From the IMG/VR virus record IMGVR_UViG_2648501336_000002: a DNA stretch of 41,928 nt. One strand, 5' to 3'. Every line of letters starts with the position of its first letter. The stretch's first letter is position 1. The notes under the pieces are model-generated. The model was not told the origin of the DNA. It worked only from the letters and a program-made list of their open reading frames with translations, and made no database searches. Shown piece by piece: positions 1-38,397 of this stretch. The stretch is from a virus. Lineage: Duplodnaviria; Heunggongvirae; Uroviricota; Caudoviricetes. The position numbers were made by a program, and so were the translations under genes.

Positions 1-819
1 ATGCTTGTTAAATTCAGAATAGATCGAAATACAATTACAAATAACAGCACAATTTTAAACGCTAATGACAATCATTTAATTTACTCAAACCTAAATGACA
101 CAGATATAAACTCAAAAATATTTGACGCTGTAAATGGTGAAATATCAGCAAAGAAACTAGCCGACGAACTATTTCCTGAAAACGAACCACACATTTTTAT
201 ATCTCATAGTAGCAAAGACGTAAATGTAGCAATAAGTCTAGCAAACACTCTTTATGCAAAATATAAGATAACATCTTTCATTGACTCCCAACTTTGGGGA
301 CATATTGACCACGCACTAAAGGAAATGCATAATCGATACTGCAAGATCCCCGGCTCATCTTATTACCACTATGATAAATCTAATAACCTACTATCTCATA
401 TGCACGCCATACTAAGTATGGCTTTAATGAGAGTAATGGATAACGCTGACAGCGTTATATTTATCGAATCCGGCAACTCAATTTACCAATATATGGGAGA
501 TACTACCATTGCTCCCCAAGAAGCAATTGAAAAAACATCTGAAACATTATCTCCATGGATATCCTCTGAGGTGAATTTTGCAAATACCTTAAGATTGAAA
601 GGCCATAAAGATAGAGAACAACCATTAATGGAAAGCACAGATTCATACTCTTTAAACAAGAGTAATATTAAAGCAGACTCCTTACCCAAAATAATACATG
701 AAGTCAACTTAAGTAAATTCATAGAGATAGACAACAAAAAATTCAAAGAGTCTTTATCATTAAATGAAACAAATCCAATAAAAACTTTAGATATGATTTA
801 CCAAATATATGCTCAATAG
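1..819 (+). CDS. TIR-like domain protein (bacterial TIR / ThsB-like); accessory gene, 5' end possibly cut by window edge
   Basis: 272-aa ORF, visibly AT-rich; motif HIFISHSSKD resembles the FISH-type beta-A motif of bacterial TIR domains, with conserved Glu candidates downstream (FIESGN, WISSE). No search run. Confidence 0.45.
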   Translation: MLVKFRIDRNTITNNSTILNANDNHLIYSNLNDTDINSKIFDAVNGEISAKKLADELFPENEPHIFISHSSKDVNVAISLANTLYAKYKITSFIDSQLWGHIDHALKEMHNRYCKIPGSSYYHYDKSNNLLSHMHAILSMALMRVMDNADSVIFIESGNSIYQYMGDTTIAPQEAIEKTSETLSPWISSEVNFANTLRLKGHKDREQPLMESTDSYSLNKSNIKADSLPKIIHEVNLSKFIEIDNKKFKESLSLNETNPIKTLDMIYQIYAQ

Positions 820-29485: not shown

Positions 29486-30010
29486 TCATCTGGCAGGTTG
29501 TAACGGTGCAGGAGTTTTGCCACTGACTTCTATATTTCGGGGAAATTTATATTCAGCGGAGCATTTATGACACTTGAGAATTTTATAAGCGGCATTAGAA
29601 GTATGGTATTGAAGTATAGACTTCATACCCGACTCATAGCATGTAGTACAAAGATAATGAGGCTTGAACTCAGGATCGTCAGTAGGCTTCAGTACATAGA
29701 CCACCGTATTGGTAATCGGGTGGTACATTTCATAGTTCATTTTCTCACTATCCCAATCCTGTTTCTTTTCCAGAAGGGATTCGAGTTCAACAATGCGCTG
29801 TTTAGCTTCGTTCAAAAGCTCCGTTAGTGCGAATTGTCCAGTACGCGCATCAATTAGTTTATCAAGTAGATCGATAGTTTTACTTTTAACATTGTAATCC
29901 ACCTGCAACGCATTAACTTCTTTTGCTAAATCAACAGCACCTTTCAAAGCACCACCAGCACTAGTGGCCGCCTCAGTTATACGCCGTACAAGTCCTTTTT
30001 CTTCAGACAT
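29486..30010 (-). CDS. Coiled-coil protein with C-terminal C4 zinc ribbon (hypothetical), convergent with cI
   Basis: 174 aa; helical N-terminus then CTTC...CHKC (CxxC-x22-CxxC); AGAGAGAAT Shine-Dalgarno-like upstream. Confidence 0.5.
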   Translation of the reverse strand: MSEEKGLVRRITEAATSAGGALKGAVDLAKEVNALQVDYNVKSKTIDLLDKLIDARTGQFALTELLNEAKQRIVELESLLEKKQDWDSEKMNYEMYHPITNTVVYVLKPTDDPEFKPHYLCTTCYESGMKSILQYHTSNAAYKILKCHKCSAEYKFPRNIEVSGKTPAPLQPAR

Positions 30011-32602: not shown

Positions 32603-33151
32603 ATGAAACTGAAGCTGAACAATGTTCGTCTGGCCTTCCCGTCTCTGTTTGAAGCTAAAACTGTAAACGGCGAAGGCGATCCACGTTTCTCCGCAGTATT
32701 TTTAATGTCACCCAAACACCCACAACTGGAAGAAATCCGTAAAGCTATGAAGCAGGTAGCGAAGGAAAAATGGGGAGAGAAGTGGGAGCCCATTTATAAC
32801 CAACTGGAGAAAAAACTCAATCTGTGCCTGCATGATGGTGATGAAAAAGCAGAGTATGAAGGCTTCCCCGGCAATTTCTTCCTGAATGCTGCTAACAAAG
32901 CGCGCCCAGCTGTTCTTGATCGCGATCGTTCGCCACTTATTCAGGCTGATGGACGTCCCTATGCAGGGTGCTATGTAAACGCCGTTATCGATATCTGGGC
33001 ACAGGACAATAATTTCGGTAAACGCATTAATGCCTCACTCGGCGGAGTCCAGTTCCTGCGAGACGGCGATGCATTCGCTGGCGGCGGAGTGGCAAGCGCT
33101 GACGATTTCGACGATATCAGCGAAGGTGCTGATGCTGAAGCACTGATTTAA
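32603..33151 (+). CDS. Phage ssDNA-binding-like protein (DUF2815-type)
   Basis: 182 aa with an acidic C-terminal tail (DDFDDISEGADAEALI); lies between the nuclease and the polymerase. Confidence 0.5.
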   Translation: MKLKLNNVRLAFPSLFEAKTVNGEGDPRFSAVFLMSPKHPQLEEIRKAMKQVAKEKWGEKWEPIYNQLEKKLNLCLHDGDEKAEYEGFPGNFFLNAANKARPAVLDRDRSPLIQADGRPYAGCYVNAVIDIWAQDNNFGKRINASLGGVQFLRDGDAFAGGGVASADDFDDISEGADAEALI

Positions 33152-33166
33152 CCCTACTTCATAGAC

Positions 33167-33185
33167 GCCCGGTTAAATACCGGGC
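33167..33185. terminator. Stem-loop between convergent genes (weak terminator)
   Basis: GCCCGG-TTAAATA-CCGGGC; no strong U-tract on either strand. Confidence 0.3.
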
Positions 33186-33203
33186 TGCTGATTAGGCGTA
33201 TAA

Positions 33204-33833
33204 TCACTCAGGAATCTTAATCTTCCTCAATTCTTTATTTAGTTCACAGATCTTCTTCTTAGACGGGAAAGTATCATACATCCAAAAACCAACAGTCTCT
33301 AAAACTATTGTCATAACCATATACACAAGATAATTTAAAAGGCCTTCATTTTGCCCTATGGAAATAATGCAGATAATAGAAAAAAGGATAAACAGCACAA
33401 AACACAGAAAGGAAAACAGACGACTAATAATAAATAAAAAACCTGAAAAATTAACATTGATGAAAAACACTCCGTTATCTTTCTCTATATAATTCTGAAG
33501 CTTAATCACCTGATTTATATACTGTCTTTTTTCTAATCTATTGCAAATGTAAATAACATCACTTCGGTTATAAGAAGATTGCAATTTCAGCGCATCACGA
33601 ATAATTTTATCATTTATTCTTTTTTCTATGGCACTCTTATCCTCCTTATCCAGATAACGTTCATACTTAACTAAATATAAAATTAACTTCTTGACATATT
33701 TAGGCTCTTTATACTTATAATTAAAAATGATCTTTCTTATCCAGACTCCCATAACAATCAAACATGAAAAAATATATCCAGCTATTTTCTCCAGATGCTC
33801 TGTATGGTCAATCAAGTATTGGATCATATGCAT
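33204..33833 (-). CDS. AT-rich membrane protein (about 3 TM), antisense moron; candidate exclusion / abortive-infection protein
   Basis: 209 aa, strongly AT-rich, Lys/Ile/Tyr-rich; hydrophobic segments near the N-terminus and at about residues 125-170; opposite strand to the flanking replication genes. Confidence 0.5.
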   Translation of the reverse strand: MHMIQYLIDHTEHLEKIAGYIFSCLIVMGVWIRKIIFNYKYKEPKYVKKLILYLVKYERYLDKEDKSAIEKRINDKIIRDALKLQSSYNRSDVIYICNRLEKRQYINQVIKLQNYIEKDNGVFFINVNFSGFLFIISRLFSFLCFVLFILFSIICIISIGQNEGLLNYLVYMVMTIVLETVGFWMYDTFPSKKKICELNKELRKIKIPE

Positions 33834-33879
33834 AATTAATCTTTTAATCAGTTAATAGAATAAAAACCAAGGTAAACAC

Positions 33880-35943
33880 ATGTCCAATATACTATGGGGC
33901 GACCTGGAAACCTATTGCGAAATCCCTATTACGAACGGTACCCATGCGTATGCCGAAGGCGTTGAAGTGATGCTGTTCGCATGGGCTATCAACGACGGGC
34001 CAGTAAACGTATGGGATATCACTGCCGGTGGTGGTATTCCACACGGCTTATACGAAGCAATCGCAGCCCCTGAAACCCTGCTTTATTTTCATAACTCTCA
34101 CTTCGACCGCACCGTCCTGCGTTATGCAATGCCGCGACTGGCACCGCCAGTCGAACGTTGGCGCGACACGATGGTGCAGGCGCTGGCGCACGGTCTCCCG
34201 GGGTCTCTGGGGGAACTCTGCGAAGTACTAGGCGTCCCGCAAGACAAAGCGAAGGACAAAGAAGGTAAAGCGCTGATCCAGCTGTTCTGTAAGCCACGCC
34301 CGAAAAACAGCAAACTGCGCCGGGCCACCAGCAAAACCCACCCGGAAGAATGGCGGCGCTTTGTTGCTTACGCCGGACTGGATATCGAGGCAATGCGCGA
34401 AGTCTATAAACGTCTGCCGAAGTGGAATTATCAGGGGACAGAACTGGCGCTCTGGCATCGTGATCAGCAGATCAATGACCGGGGCGTCTGCATGGACGTG
34501 GAACTCGCACGCGCTGCGATCGACGCGGTAGACCAGGAACAAAAGCGCCTGGCAAAGCGTACACAGGAAATGACTGATGGCGAAGTGCAGGCAGCCACAC
34601 AACGAGACGCGTTGATTAAGCACATTGTTGAATCCTACGGTGTGGAGCTACCAGACATGCAACGCAGTACTCTGGAACGTCGTATTGCCGACCCCGATTT
34701 ACCATCTGCCGTGAAAGAACTGCTGGCTATCCGCCTGCAGGCCAGTACTACCAGCACCAGTAAATACAAGGCACTGATGAAAGGCGTAAGCCACGACGGG
34801 CGCTTACGCGGTACGCTACAGTTCTGCGGGGCGTCACGTACCGGTCGTTGGGCCGGACGGCTATTCCAGCCCCAGAACCTTCCCCGCCCTTCACTAAAAC
34901 AGGAACAAATAGACGAAGGCATCGAAGCACTGAAAGCCGGATGTGCAGACCTGCTGTTTGACAATATCATGGAACTAACCAGTTCAGCGTTACGTGGCTG
35001 CATTATCGCGCCAACAGGCAAAAAGCTGGTGGTAAGTGACTTGTCGAACATTGAAGGCCGTATGCTGGCATGGCTGGCGGGAGAAGAATGGAAACTGAAT
35101 GCATTCAGAGAGTACGACGCCGGAACGGGTCCGGACTTATATAAACTGGCGTATGCAAAAGCTTTCGATATTGCACCAGATGATGTTGATAAACACATGC
35201 GTCAGATCGGTAAAGTCATGGAACTCGGTCTGGGTTATGGAGGAGGTGTATCGGCTTTCATCACTTTTGCTCTGGTTTACGGTCTCGATCTCGACGGGCT
35301 GGCGAACGCCGCACTGCCAAACATTCCCCGCGATGTTATCCGCGAGGCGAAAAGCTGGTACGACGAATCGGTTAAACGTAAATCGACCTACGGGCTTTCT
35401 GAACGGGTATTTATCGCCTGCGACTCACTTAAACGTCTCTGGCGCCGGGCGCATCCCGCGACCTGTGATTTCTGGTACGAACTGGAGTGCACCGTCCGCA
35501 CAGCAATCGCCACACCGCAAAAAACATTGTATTGCGGTTATCTTAAAATCCGCCGCGATGGCGCGTGGCTGCGCATACAGCTACCATCCGGACGCGCTGT
35601 ATGCTACCCGTCTCCGGTTATCGAACAAGGGAATATCACCTACATGGGTGTTAACTCTTATTCGCGTAAATGGCAACGACTCAAAACCTACGGCGGAAAG
35701 CTGGTGGAGAACGTCACCCAGGCGGCCGCCCGCGACGTTCTGGCCGGAAACATGCCGCTTATCGAAGATGCCGGTTACAGCATTGTGCTGACGGTACACG
35801 ACGAGGTGATCACCGAATCACCTGACACAGAAGATTTCAACGATAAAGCGCTTTCCGCGCTTCTCTCCACTAACCCCGAATGGGCGCCAGATATCCCACT
35901 GAACGCTGGCGGTTTTGAGGCGTACCACTACCGTAAGGATTAA
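33880..35943 (+). CDS. DNA polymerase, family A (T7/Pol I-like) with 3'-5' exonuclease domain
   Basis: 687 aa; Exo I-like DLETY; motif A-like SDLSNIEGR; motif B-like [12 protein letters not shown]; motif C VHDEV. Confidence 0.85.
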
Positions 35944-35948
35944 CTCCT

Positions 35949-36164
35949 ATGTCATTTAAATACCGGGACAATCCACTTTATTACAGGGCTGCAAGGGAGG
36001 CTTTGCGACTTGAACAATCCGGCGAATATGACCGGGCAGCGAAGGTCTGGGCAAAAGCCAACCGCGAATCACATCACGAACTGAATCAGGAATGGAGTGA
36101 ACGCAGATCTGATTTTTGCCTGATGCAGAATATGCGTGAAAAGCGTAAGGCGGTCGAAGAATGA
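35949..36164 (+). CDS. Small regulatory protein, possibly PerC-like
   Basis: 71 aa; AREALRLEQSGEYDRAAKVWAKA resembles PerC-family proteins (recollection only). Confidence 0.35.
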   Translation: MSFKYRDNPLYYRAAREALRLEQSGEYDRAAKVWAKANRESHHELNQEWSERRSDFCLMQNMREKRKAVEE

Positions 36165-36723: not shown

Positions 36724-37293
36724 TTAGTCAATGCCTTTTTGATTGAACTTCTGATTCTCCAGTATGCTTTGCAGCTCAATATTATCATTTGCAGCGGTTT
36801 GTTTATGCTCATGATATTTTTCTTGCGTATAATTTCTTTCTCTTAGTTTCTGTGCGTAATTATTAGAAATAATATCATGACGATCTTGTAATACTTGTTC
36901 AAGTTGACTTTTAAAGTCCTCTATCTTTTCATTAGAAATAACATTTTTGTACTTTTCAATATCACGGCGAAGTTCTTTTTCTTTCTTCTTATTAATGCTT
37001 AATAACTGTCGATTAACGCTACCTAAGGACCATTTAAACCCAATCGACTTTATCCAATGCGCCAGAAACATAGCGCAACTGGGAAGCATTAATAAAAGAA
37101 ATGGCTTTATTGTATTTAAATCAGAACCAATATACGGAAAACGACCGTCCCACGAGGACACCAGTAATGTTAAAAAACCAGTGATGCCACCAGCAGCAAC
37201 ATTAGAAATCAGAGGGACTTTTTCGTAGCTATCAGGTTTAGAAGCGCTACTCAAACGTCCCTCCTTTGACTGATCTTCCAGCACGAATGGCAT
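36724..37293 (-). CDS. Membrane protein with charged coiled-coil C-terminus (third gene of the antisense cassette)
   Basis: 189 aa, AT-rich; two hydrophobic helices (about residues 30-48 and 63-85) then a Lys/Glu-rich helical tail. Confidence 0.45.
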   Translation of the reverse strand: MPFVLEDQSKEGRLSSASKPDSYEKVPLISNVAAGGITGFLTLLVSSWDGRFPYIGSDLNTIKPFLLLMLPSCAMFLAHWIKSIGFKWSLGSVNRQLLSINKKKEKELRRDIEKYKNVISNEKIEDFKSQLEQVLQDRHDIISNNYAQKLRERNYTQEKYHEHKQTAANDNIELQSILENQKFNQKGID

Positions 37294-37495
37294 TCATTGC
37301 AATTTTGTAAAATTCATCATCAGAAGAGACATCAACGACATCGCGACGGACAACTCCTTCTGAGTCAACACATTCAAGAACAAGATGATGTTTAGGCATA
37401 AGCGCAAAGCGTAACCGGTCAAACCCCATCTTAAGAACCCAATATAGTACGGGAAGCAGGCTAAAAAAAGCCAGCCAAAAAGCAAAAGCAATCAT
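37247..37495 (-). CDS. Small membrane protein (second gene of the antisense cassette)
   Basis: 82 aa; N-terminal TM helix IAFAFWLAFFSLLPVLYWVL; overlaps the downstream gene by 47 nt. Confidence 0.4.
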   Translation of the reverse strand: MIAFAFWLAFFSLLPVLYWVLKMGFDRLRFALMPKHHLVLECVDSEGVVRRDVVDVSSDDEFYKIAMNAIRAGRSVKGGTFE

Positions 37496-37518
37496 AGCCC
37501 CCTCCCCATGTGAATCTA

Positions 37519-38397
37519 CTATAAGATGCCGTGTACTTTAACAACTATGTACGTTTTGTCCAGCGAATTCAAGTTCTCACGGACGAGCAAATCAACGCAG
37601 TAAGCATCACTAAAAACACCAGGTTCTCTTCCCGTACTAACACGTTGTAAGAACTCAGTATCTTCTATAGACACGCTGATTGTGTCATCGCCATAGTTGA
37701 CTCGCCAGCCTGTGTTTTTATCCTTATGAATAGTCAAAAATGTGATTAGAGCCTCTTCAATCACCCTTTCAGACAAGGACTGCACTACAGGAACGCGCCT
37801 ATATCTGAACGGTTCAATATTATCTTCGTGCACCTTAATCAGCTCAACCCCCTGTTGAGTTGAAATTTTAAGCGATTCGTATCCTTCCTTTTGCAAAGGA
37901 TTATGAATTAACTTCGATAAGGATTTGCGTATGCTTGGTGAGGCAAGTAAAGGCCGGAAATATGACGGGGCTATAATTTCCTCACCATCATCCATAACTA
38001 TTTTACAGTCTCCTTCCGCTGTTAAAGTCAACCGTTTTATTTGCCTACCATTGATCTGACGAATTAAGTCAATGAGAGTATTTCCTGCTGCGAGTGCAGT
38101 TGTACCTCCAAGCCCAATAATGCTTAATATATTCAAATGGTCAAGTGGATTTTGAATAACATCAATCAAATACTCAAATGAGCCTTCCTTAAAAGGCTCA
38201 ACCTCAACATTAATACACTCACTAGTGCCATTGACAACCAAATTAACTTCTTTAAGCAAGTTGTTTAGTCCATTCAATGACTCAGTTAAAACATCCAAAT
38301 CTATTTTATGATCTGCTAGTGCGGGACCATCATATTTAACAACTAATTTATCAGTAATATTTTCTTCTTGCTGGACATCTGTATAAGCTGAGGTCAT
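37519..38397 (-). CDS. Hypothetical soluble protein (first gene of the antisense cassette)
   Basis: 292 aa, AT-rich, no recognisable catalytic motif; AAGGAA Shine-Dalgarno 7 nt upstream of the ATG at 38397. Confidence 0.5.
   Translation of the reverse strand: MTSAYTDVQQEENITDKLVVKYDGPALADHKIDLDVLTESLNGLNNLLKEVNLVVNGTSECINVEVEPFKEGSFEYLIDVIQNPLDHLNILSIIGLGGTTALAAGNTLIDLIRQINGRQIKRLTLTAEGDCKIVMDDGEEIIAPSYFRPLLASPSIRKSLSKLIHNPLQKEGYESLKISTQQGVELIKVHEDNIEPFRYRRVPVVQSLSERVIEEALITFLTIHKDKNTGWRVNYGDDTISVSIEDTEFLQRVSTGREPGVFSDAYCVDLLVRENLNSLDKTYIVVKVHGIL

What the first reader, a model, noticed from the sequence alone, without database searches (positions are those of the whole stretch)
33204..33833. 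Lone, strongly AT-rich membrane protein inserted antisense between the SSB-like and DNA polymerase genes
A single 209-aa ORF with about three hydrophobic helices and Lys/Tyr/Ile-rich soluble parts interrupts the plus-strand replication operon on the opposite strand. Its composition is very different from its neighbours, and a stem-loop separates it from the upstream convergent gene. Single membrane proteins in this context often act in superinfection exclusion or abortive infection.
Basis: partly seen in the sequence, partly recalled or inferred. Interest (0 to 1): 0.6.

Follow-up and report, generated by a model that had tools for sequence, protein, structure and literature searches.

The report
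Swappable prophage membrane gene, likely anti-phage
A real, conserved gene for a small inner-membrane protein of unknown function occupies an always-filled, swappable slot between two replication genes of an E. coli prophage; it is most likely a one-gene defence against other phages, which a published machine-learning screen also predicts but nobody has tested.

Summary
Window 33204-33833(-) is an intact 209-aa ORF with GC 0.295 against about 0.50 in its neighbours. It has three hydrophobic helices and lies antisense between a DUF2815/Enc34 ssDNA-binding gene and a family-A DNA polymerase gene, and a stem-loop sits at 33167-33185.

The window is an E. coli prophage integrated next to yfhL. The interval from the SSB stop codon to the polymerase ATG is replaced wholesale among 159 related prophages and is never empty. 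Its cargo is this gene (67 genomes), a 199-aa distant homologue (20 genomes; hhalign 97.6%), a SIR2 defence candidate, Nmad5 cassettes, or Ant/BRO-N.

The protein belongs to a rare Enterobacterales family, phrog_10579, of unknown function. It has no Pfam, PADLOC or PDB hit and no informative fold match. Members share one topology and an invariant C-terminal motif.

Homologues occur as lone genes in other accessory slots: the P2 orf30 slot, next to a dGTPase defence gene, next to Septu-like genes, on a conjugative element, and as chromosomal islets.

DefensePredictor (Science 2026) lists this exact protein as a predicted novel defence gene with log-odds 6.1. It was not among the candidates tested.

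Verdict: a probable single-gene inner-membrane anti-phage protein. The function is inferred, not shown, and the mechanism is open.

The parts
33204..33833 (-). 209-aa ORF (RefSeq WP_000551021.1), a member of phrog_10579. The stop codon is at 33204-33206.
   Evidence: The ORF is intact in 67 complete E. coli genomes. dN/dS is about 0.3.
33786..33833 (-). N-terminal 16 residues: short, net acidic, with a conserved (D/E)H-x-E motif. Predicted to face the periplasm.
   Evidence: Charge tally in 10 family members; alignment. The topology is inferred from the positive-inside rule.
33723..33785 (-). Transmembrane helix 1 (about aa 17-37).
   Evidence: Hydropathy; AF2 helix 11-37. It is conserved in remote homologues that align from residues 1-4. 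This supports the 209-aa start over the Met28 start implied by the PHROG profile.
33456..33722 (-). Basic, mostly helical soluble domain (about aa 38-126) with a beta-hairpin at 116-125. Predicted to be cytoplasmic.
   Evidence: K+R is 19-24 against D+E 9-14 across the family. AF2 with an MSA gave pLDDT 76.6. Eight of the 11 non-synonymous differences among alleles fall here or at its C-terminal edge.
33270..33455 (-). TM2-TM3 hairpin (about aa 127-188) with a 4-5 residue outer loop. It carries a conserved Arg138 at the cytoplasmic end of TM2 and a conserved Glu179 inside TM3.
33207..33269 (-). Cytoplasmic C-terminal tail with the most conserved motif of the family: P-x4-I-x2-(I/L)-N-x-E-L-x-K. 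N199 and L202 are invariant.
   Evidence: The motif is also present in the 199-aa allele.
33152..33879 (.). The exchangeable cassette: everything between the SSB stop codon and the polymerase ATG. It is replaced as a unit among related prophages.
   Evidence: Alignment A1 shows identity ending at the SSB TAA and resuming at the pol ATG. No slot is empty in 159 genomes.
33167..33185 (.). GC-rich stem-loop (6-7 bp stem, 5-7 nt loop) just after the SSB gene. It has no U-run on either strand.
   Evidence: It is shared with the SIR2 cassette, while a different hairpin follows SSB in the Nmad5 cassettes.
33857..33886 (-). Sigma-70-like match (TGGACA-18-TATTCT) upstream of the ORF. Its -35 element overlaps the polymerase start codon.
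   Evidence: The match is 9 of 12, and such matches are not more frequent here than in shuffles, so this is a candidate only.
33525..33628 (.). Pair of 11-nt direct repeats (TCTTTTTTCTA) 93 nt apart. They bound the 93-bp in-frame deletion (aa 73-103) seen in the allele of strain F1022.
32603..33151 (+). Conserved left flank: the DUF2815/Enc34-type ssDNA-binding protein gene.
   Evidence: 7.6e-44.
33880..35943 (+). Conserved right flank: the family-A DNA polymerase gene.
   Evidence: dN/dS is 0.05-0.2.

Best explanation
The ORF is a self-contained accessory gene (a moron) carried in a recombinational hotspot of an E. coli temperate phage. It encodes a three-pass inner-membrane protein whose soluble parts face the cytoplasm. 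Its most likely job is single-gene defence of the lysogen against other phages. Shown: it is a real gene under purifying selection. It belongs to a small family with one conserved topology and a conserved C-terminal motif. It travels alone, without a partner gene. It occupies slots that elsewhere hold defence genes. Inferred: the topology is N-terminus out and C-terminus in, with a 90-aa basic domain and the conserved tail in the cytoplasm. The protein acts at the inner membrane from the cytoplasmic side. My preferred mechanism, at about 0.3 of the total, is abortive-infection-like. In this model the cytoplasmic domain and tail sense an infection cue, and the TM2-TM3 hairpin, with its conserved buried Glu179, oligomerises into a leak that depolarises the cell. 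The alternative inside the same explanation, at about 0.25, is a SieA/Imm-like block of phage DNA translocation across the inner membrane. The antisense position inside the lytic replication operon would let lytic read-through transcription dampen the gene during the phage's own growth; this is also inference.
For: It is a real gene. 0 of 5000 simulations reach its length. It is intact in 67 of 5426 complete E. coli genomes and in 3 induced phages. dN/dS is about 0.3. Full-length homologues at 22-44% identity exist in Rahnella, Serratia, Xenorhabdus and metagenomes.

The slot behaves like a defence hotspot. It is exchanged exactly at gene boundaries and is never empty. One alternative cargo is a SIR2 protein matching PADLOC PDC-S25 (3.9e-157) and ThsA (4.9e-18). 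The next slot, after the polymerase gene, carries a TIR protein (PDC-S35) in relatives. A 199-aa protein at the same slot is a distant homologue: about 19% identity, hhalign probability 97.6%, E 3.7e-12. It is present in 20 more E. coli genomes and in a Klebsiella aerogenes prophage. Flanks 97-98% identical carrying alleles about 19% identical is the pattern expected of arms-race genes.

The contexts of homologues agree. They lie in the P2 orf30 moron slot between gpS and gpV, two genes from a PADLOC dGTPase (5.5e-144) in a lambdoid prophage, and next to PtuA/PtuB-like genes and a type I R-M S subunit beside an integrase in Serratia. Others are on a conjugative element, at the end of a CbtA/CbeA island, and in lone chromosomal islets. 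No neighbour is shared across these contexts.

The topology is consistent in 10 members.

There is independent published support. DefensePredictor Table S10 lists WP_000551021.1 with mean log-odds 6.106 (min 2.92, max 9.54) against a strict cut-off of 4, as a 'Predicted novel defense gene' with no HHblits or Foldseek hit. Overall, 45% of that study's cloned predictions validated (PMC13092281). A 2026 study found that 6 of 8 randomly chosen unknown-function loci from P4 satellite defence hotspots protected against phages (PMC13586616).
Confidence: 0.55

Rival explanations
1. It is a lysogenic-conversion or mobile-element-competition factor that is not anti-phage. Examples would be a membrane protein that alters host envelope physiology, transport or stress tolerance, or one that excludes conjugative DNA in the manner of the inner-membrane entry-exclusion proteins TraS and Eex.
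For: Family members survive as lone islets between housekeeping genes in Xenorhabdus and Pluralibacter, so the gene is kept outside phages. One homologue lies on an element with TraG_N. One family member gives a very weak Pfam TraS hit (E = 0.1). Known exclusion proteins of SXT/R391 elements act through cytoplasmic residues (my own knowledge, not tested here).
Against: The TraS hit is not significant. The homologue on the conjugative element is not in the position downstream of traG. Most contexts are phage or defence-island slots. The ML defence score is above the strict threshold.
Confidence: 0.2
2. It is a phage lytic-cycle accessory protein. It could be a membrane anchor or organiser for the replisome encoded around it (as for phi29 p16.7), or a lysis-timing protein of the holin or antiholin type.
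For: 87 of 159 related E. coli prophages, and a Klebsiella aerogenes relative, carry a family member at exactly this place in the replication module. There is a weak holin PHROG hit (E = 0.066).
Against: The gene is antisense to the replication operon. It is replaced by unrelated genes (SIR2, Nmad5, BRO-N) in 72 of 159 prophages that keep near-identical SSB and polymerase genes. Homologues sit among P2 tail genes, in nin-type regions, on conjugative elements and in chromosomal islets with no replication genes nearby. The prophage already has a lambda-family holin, a GH24 endolysin and an antiterminator Q. The holin hit is not significant and covers only a TM segment.
Confidence: 0.1
3. It is a selfish or decaying passenger: a toxic small membrane protein kept by addiction, or a gene under relaxed selection with no current role.
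For: dN/dS of about 0.3 is relaxed compared with 0.05-0.2 for the polymerase. One allele carries a 31-aa in-frame deletion made by slippage between 11-nt repeats. Truncated copies exist (P0002, P0003, P0021). The extreme AT content would attract H-NS silencing (my own knowledge).
Against: All 67 complete-genome copies cover at least 80% of the query, and 66 are full length. The topology and a specific C-terminal motif are conserved down to about 20% identity across genera. No antitoxin-like partner or antisense RNA family is detectable.
Confidence: 0.1

Closest known systems
Prophage superinfection-exclusion inner-membrane proteins (P22 SieA, T4 Imm, HK97 gp15 moron)
   Same: It is a small, prophage-borne, single-gene predicted inner-membrane protein. 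It has moron-like anatomy, with foreign composition and its own orientation. Like HK97 gp15 and P2 orf30, family members sit in accessory slots among conserved genes.
   Different: There is no detectable sequence or fold relationship. Almost all of the non-membrane mass is predicted to be cytoplasmic, with only about 16 plus 5 residues outside. Exclusion activity is untested.
Abortive-infection membrane proteins (lambda RexB, P22/lambda SieB)
   Same: It is prophage-encoded and membrane-embedded, with cytoplasm-facing parts that could couple an intracellular cue to membrane failure. It has a conserved charged residue inside a TM helix.
   Different: There is no homology: no Pfam hit, including to the SieB family. 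It has no partner sensor gene such as RexA, because no neighbour is conserved. It has 3 TM helices rather than 4.
Defence hotspots of temperate phages and satellites (P2 old/tin and Z/fun loci, P4 hotspot; Rousset et al. 2022, PMC9122126; PMC13586616)
   Same: Conserved core genes flank a locus whose content is swapped wholesale. The cargo includes recognised defence candidates and many unknowns. The cargo is AT-rich.
   Different: This is a different phage lineage (a myovirus-like prophage with a DUF2800-DUF2815-PolA replication module, integrated at yfhL) and a different locus, inside the replication operon with breakpoints at the stop and start codons. I found no paper describing this hotspot.
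DefensePredictor 'predicted novel defense gene' clusters (Science 2026, PMC13092281)
   Same: This exact RefSeq protein is in that paper's Table S10, with mean log-odds 6.1.
   Different: It is a prediction only. The protein is not among the tables of cloned or validated systems that I could search. No mechanism or family description is given.

Membership tests
phrog_10579 (PHROG family of unknown function) | Significant full-length match to the family HMM | tested here: met
   E = 2e-109, with aa 28-209 matching profile positions 1-182. 16 of 17 aligned relatives, including 199-aa alleles, also match.
phrog_10579 (PHROG family of unknown function) | Shared architecture: TM1, a basic domain of about 100 aa, a TM2-TM3 hairpin, and a basic tail with the N-x-E-L-x-K motif | tested here: met
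Moron (independently acquired accessory gene in a phage genome) | Present in some and absent from other closely related phages at the same position | tested here: met
   67 of 159 prophages carry it and the others carry different cargo.
Moron (independently acquired accessory gene in a phage genome) | Base composition deviating from the surrounding genome | tested here: met
   GC is 0.295 against 0.494 for the window. The Rahnella homologue is 0.29 against 0.55.
Moron (independently acquired accessory gene in a phage genome) | Own promoter and terminator allowing expression from the repressed prophage | tested here: inconclusive
   One 9-of-12 sigma-70-like match lies upstream, but such matches are at chance frequency. 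No canonical terminator was found, only a U-less hairpin.
Phage defence hotspot | Variable cargo bounded by conserved core genes, with recognised defence genes among the cargo | tested here: met
   Breakpoints lie at the SSB stop codon and the pol ATG. The SIR2 cargo matches PDC-S25 and is ThsA-like. However, PDC-S25 is itself a candidate system, and Nmad5 and Ant/BRO-N cargos are not known defences.
Known anti-phage defence systems (PADLOC-DB 2.0) | HMM match to a component of a described or candidate system | tested here: not met
   0 hits at E <= 1 for this protein and at E <= 0.01 for the 199-aa allele, P0005 and P0007.
Superinfection exclusion proteins (SieA, Imm, gp15 type) | Blocks genome entry of superinfecting phage while adsorption is normal | not testable with these tools
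   This needs plaque, adsorption and DNA-entry assays.
Superinfection exclusion proteins (SieA, Imm, gp15 type) | Sequence or fold homology to a characterised member | tested here: not met
RexAB / SieB-type abortive infection | Homology to RexB or SieB, or a conserved sensor partner gene | tested here: not met
   There is no Pfam hit and no conserved neighbour in more than 12 independent contexts.
Holins | Small TM protein encoded in a lysis cassette next to an endolysin, with a match to a holin family | tested here: not met
   The only hit is phrog_2508 at E = 0.066 over 40 residues. The prophage's holin, endolysin and spanin cassette lies about 20 kb away.

The most novel reading that the evidence does not exclude
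The family is a new kind of one-protein immune module: a roughly 200-aa inner-membrane protein that both senses infection from the cytoplasmic side, through its basic helical domain and invariant C-terminal helix, and executes the response through its own TM hairpin. Its extremely diverged alleles (209 aa and 199 aa, about 19% identical) at one always-occupied replication-module hotspot would set different phage specificities.
Probability: 0.25. Interest if true: 0.65.

Novelty: new member of a known kind. Interest (0 to 1): 0.45.

Why it matters
If the protein is defensive, it adds an uncharacterised, very compact membrane immunity family with no homology to known systems. It would also define a previously undescribed, never-empty defence hotspot inside the replication operon of a common E. 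coli, Klebsiella and related prophage lineage. That hotspot is a natural place to mine further genes, such as the 229-aa and 89-aa antisense ORFs and the Nmad5 cassettes. The allelic series, near-identical flanks around proteins about 19% identical, offers a ready-made system for mapping specificity determinants. If the protein is not defensive, the always-occupied slot still asks why this junction must carry a spacer gene.

Tried and rejected
Homology and structure searches:
- Pfam, NCBIfam and PADLOC gave nothing. NCBIfam returned only sub-threshold TM-bias hits such as RbsU and Rex.
- The PDB sequence profile search gave 0 hits.
- The afdb50 fold library was unavailable.
- P2 Orf30, which occupies the slot used by the Rahnella homologue, is not related (hhalign probability 0.5%).

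Sequence features of the cassette:
- I looked for transposon-like terminal repeats, an sRNA or a small partner ORF inside the cassette and found none.
- The Met28 start suggested by the PHROG profile is rejected, because remote homologues align from residues 1-4 and keep TM1.

Wider searches:
- The genome-contig scan with the wide alignment failed because no block was conserved enough. The narrow alignment found only 2 extra loci.
- Literature searches found nothing for the RefSeq accessions in full text, for the phage names, or for a DUF2815/pol hotspot.
- The paper 'E. coli prophages encode an arsenal of defense systems' is not in the library.

A marginal observation:
- The first 34 codons are nucleotide-invariant in six alleles. 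By my own estimate this is only marginally unexpected (about 3 of the 20 variable codons expected there; P about 0.04), and one change does occur in strain F1022. I did not build on it.

Full report
OBSERVATION

The ORF at 33204..33833(-) is present as described: 209 aa with an ATG start. In 5000 Markov-1 simulations of the 728-bp interval between the flanking genes, the longest stop-free run averaged 64 codons and never exceeded 163. The observed run is 215 codons, so the ORF is not a chance product of AT-rich sequence.

GC is 0.295 for the ORF, against 0.48-0.58 in the neighbouring genes and 0.494 for the window. This is the lowest-GC stretch of the window. Ile, Leu, Lys and Tyr make up 43% of residues.

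The neighbours are a DUF2800/PD-(D/E)XK nuclease, a DUF2815/Enc34-type SSB (32603-33151, +) and a family-A DNA polymerase (33880-35943, +). Downstream lie ANR, DUF4406 and VRR-NUC genes.

The stem-loop exists, as GCCCGG-N7-CCGGGC at 33167-33185. The 52-nt spacer folds at -18.2 kcal/mol on the plus strand and -19.4 on the minus strand, with z-scores of -2.5 and -3.4. It has no U-run, and the terminator scan finds nothing.

WHAT THE WINDOW IS

The region is 100% identical to a prophage of E. coli KOr019 integrated beside yfhL. That prophage has a tyrosine integrase, a cI/cro-like switch, an antiterminator Q, a lambda-type holin with a GH24 endolysin, and myovirus-type structural genes. It is 97% identical to three induced phages (vB_EcoM-606R2, -689R2, -611R5), in which the ORF is annotated as hypothetical. 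RefSeq calls the product WP_000551021.1, a hypothetical protein.

THE SLOT IS A HOTSPOT

Across 5426 complete E. coli genomes, 159 carry this SSB-polymerase pair, all on chromosomes. In 67 of them the ORF is present, always single-copy and always in this context, at 97-100% identity. The other 92 carry different cargo between near-identical flanks:
- a 199-aa antisense ORF, in 20 genomes and two allele groups about 80% identical to each other in DNA;
- Nmad5 plus a 229-aa soluble antisense ORF;
- Nmad5 plus an 89-aa two-TM antisense ORF;
- Ant or BRO-N genes;
- a 493-aa SIR2 protein.

A multiple alignment shows identity ending at the SSB stop codon and resuming at the polymerase ATG, so the whole intergenic unit is exchanged, including the polymerase ribosome-binding site. 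The hairpin after SSB is shared by this cassette and the SIR2 cassette. It is therefore junction sequence and not part of the gene.

A synthetic 'empty-site' query (SSB 3' end joined to pol 5' end) found no contiguous match in any of the 159 genomes. The slot is never empty. No terminal repeats, sRNA family or partner ORF lie in the cassette.

THE PROTEIN AND ITS FAMILY

Pfam, PADLOC and NCBIfam give nothing significant. PHROGs places the protein in phrog_10579, of unknown function, at 2e-109.

The word-indexed search found only the E. coli cluster. The exhaustive phmmer search of 1.84 billion representatives found full-length relatives at 25-43% identity. Profile searches then added Xenorhabdus members and the 199-aa subfamily in E. 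coli, Enterobacter, Klebsiella aerogenes and Pluralibacter. Every one is named 'hypothetical', apart from one loose DUF2207 label.

The 199-aa protein that occupies the same slot in other prophages is a true but very distant homologue. hhalign gives probability 97.6% and E 3.7e-12 over 185 columns at about 19% identity. So 87 of the 159 E. coli prophages, and a K. aerogenes prophage with the same DUF2800-SSB-[gene]-pol order, carry some member of this family here.

Relatives align from residues 1-4 and keep the first hydrophobic helix. This supports the 209-aa start rather than the Met28 start implied by the PHROG profile.

Hydropathy and charge tallies in ten members give one architecture:
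- a short acidic N-terminus;
- TM1;
- a 101-109-aa basic segment (K+R 19-24 against D+E 9-14);
- a TM2-TM3 hairpin with a 3-16-residue loop;
- a basic tail.

By the positive-inside rule the bulk of the protein faces the cytoplasm. This topology is inferred.

AlphaFold2 with a 15-sequence alignment gave pLDDT 76.6 and pTM 0.59. The model has helices at 11-37, 132-160 and 165-188, a helical soluble domain with a small beta-hairpin, and a terminal helix at 192-202.

The strongest conservation is in the tail (I195, L198, N199, E201, L202, K204; N199 and L202 are invariant). There is also a Glu inside TM3 (E179) and an Arg at the cytoplasmic end of TM2 (R138).

Fold searches returned only generic helical bundles, and the PDB sequence search returned nothing.

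SELECTION

Six alleles are all intact. Pairwise dN/dS is about 0.3 where there are enough changes, against 0.05-0.2 for the polymerase. This indicates purifying but relaxed selection. One allele, in strain F1022, has a 93-bp in-frame deletion removing aa 73-103. The deletion is bounded by 11-nt direct repeats 93 nt apart, which points to a slippage event.

CONTEXT OF HOMOLOGUES

- Rahnella, and an Enterobacterales MAG: between gpS and gpV of P2-like prophages. This is the position of the non-essential antisense orf30 in P2 itself. Orf30 is not homologous. The Rahnella copy is also AT-rich, at 0.29 against 0.55.
- A lambdoid prophage: just upstream of Q, two genes from a protein matching the PADLOC dGTPase model at 5.5e-144, and near a methylase and an HNH gene.
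- A phage contig: antisense between PAPS-reductase and RecT genes.
- A conjugative element with TraG_N.
- Serratia sp. Ag1: beside an integrase, followed by PtuB-like and PtuA-like (Septu-type) genes and a type I S subunit.
- Enterobacter: the end of a CbtA/CbeA island.
- Xenorhabdus and Pluralibacter: lone islets between housekeeping genes.
- A prophage remnant near an integrase.

No neighbour recurs across these contexts, so the gene is a one-gene module.

PUBLISHED PREDICTION

DefensePredictor (Science 2026, PMC13092281) lists WP_000551021.1, which is this protein, in Table S10 (sheet 'uncharacterized_clusters'). The entry gives mean log-odds 6.106, sd 2.37, min 2.92 and max 9.54. It is marked predicted_defensive TRUE and 'Predicted novel defense gene', with no HHblits or Foldseek hit.

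The paper's strict cut-off is 4. Of its 94 cloned predictions, 45% protected against phage, and the validation rate rose with the score. I did not find this protein or the other slot cargos in the tables of tested systems. The model uses neighbouring genes as features, so it is not fully independent of my context argument.

A 2026 study of P2 and P4 hotspots found that 6 of 8 randomly chosen unknown-function loci from P4 satellite hotspots were protective (PMC13586616).

INTERPRETATION

The gene is a moron in a recombinational hotspot. The most economical reading is a single-gene anti-phage protein acting at the inner membrane (confidence 0.55).

Because nearly all non-membrane mass and the invariant motif are predicted to be cytoplasmic, I lean towards an abortive-infection-type sensor and effector. 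In that model the TM2-TM3 hairpin, with its buried Glu, forms a leak (about 0.3). The alternative is a SieA/Imm-type block of DNA translocation (about 0.25). Both are inferences.

The antisense placement inside the lytic replication operon could silence the gene by read-through during the phage's own lytic growth. This too is inference, and the orientation is not conserved in other contexts.

The rivals are:
- a non-phage lysogenic-conversion or entry-exclusion role (0.2);
- a lytic-cycle role in replication anchoring or lysis timing (0.1). This is disfavoured because 72 of 159 prophages with near-identical replication genes do without the family, and homologues occur far from replication genes;
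- a selfish or decaying passenger (0.1).

NOVELTY AND SCORE

The kind of thing, an accessory membrane gene in a prophage hotspot that is probably defensive, is well known. The protein has also already been flagged computationally. New here are:
- the description of the family (topology, motif, range);
- the demonstration that the 209-aa and 199-aa proteins are alleles of one family at one locus;
- the definition of the SSB-pol junction as an always-occupied exchange site shared across genera.

I rate it a new member of a known kind, with interest 0.45.

Noticed in passing
window 1-819 (+): An AT-rich (GC about 0.33) 272-aa ORF at the very start of the window matches the PADLOC ThsB (Thoeris TIR-like) model at 7.7e-43. 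It lies just upstream of tail-fibre-like genes. No ThsA partner was looked for, and the sequence upstream is outside the window.
   Followed up: partly
window 36724-38397 (-): A second antisense, lower-GC island of three genes sits between the VRR-NUC and DEAD-helicase genes. The 292-aa product (37519-38397) matches PADLOC candidate PDC-S42 (6e-40) and weakly DUF7946. The 189-aa product (36724-37293; phrog_15878) has an N-terminal hydrophobic segment and a long charged coiled-coil-like tail. The third ORF is 82 aa (37247-37495).
   Followed up: partly
window 29486-30010 (-): A third antisense ORF (174 aa, phrog_1244, unknown function) lies between the repressor gene and the replication genes. 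It has a coiled-coil-like N-terminal half and a Cys-rich C-terminus (CxxC...CxxC). In the related phage 606R2 the gene at this position is a different length (570 bp against 525 bp).
   Followed up: no
window 35944-36164, compared with L001 9406-10167 and L011 5857-6618: The position just after the polymerase gene is another variable slot. Phage 606R2 and strain IAI1 carry a TIR-domain protein there (PF10137; PADLOC PDC-S35 at 1.2e-108) and a frameshifted ANR gene. Strain 48 carries a hypothetical gene plus YfbU. The window has ANR directly after the polymerase gene.
   Followed up: partly
L005 1536-2225 (-) and L008 1607-1876 (-): Two other cargos of the same SSB-pol slot also contain an antisense ORF next to a plus-strand Nmad5 gene. 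One is a 229-aa soluble protein and the other an 89-aa two-TM protein. Neither has a Pfam or PADLOC hit, and neither is related to the 209-aa family.
   Followed up: partly
L007 1-270 and 2093-4927: In strain RMDEC465 an HNH endonuclease gene sits immediately upstream of the SSB gene. The annotated polymerase is 2835 nt instead of 2064 nt, which suggests an N-terminal extension or a fusion at the slot boundary.
   Followed up: no
window 33734-33879: The first 34 codons of the ORF show no nucleotide substitution among six alleles that differ at 20 codons elsewhere. By my own estimate, about 3 of the 20 variable codons would be expected in this stretch (P about 0.04). It could reflect an overlapping regulatory element for the ORF or for the polymerase gene.
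   Followed up: partly
L022 3404-4150: Near the Xenorhabdus homologue P0010 lies a gene with a Tad2-like domain (Tad2 is an anti-Thoeris family), together with HicA, a Tn3-type resolvase and tail-fibre-assembly remnants. This looks like a mosaic of mobile-element debris.
   Followed up: no
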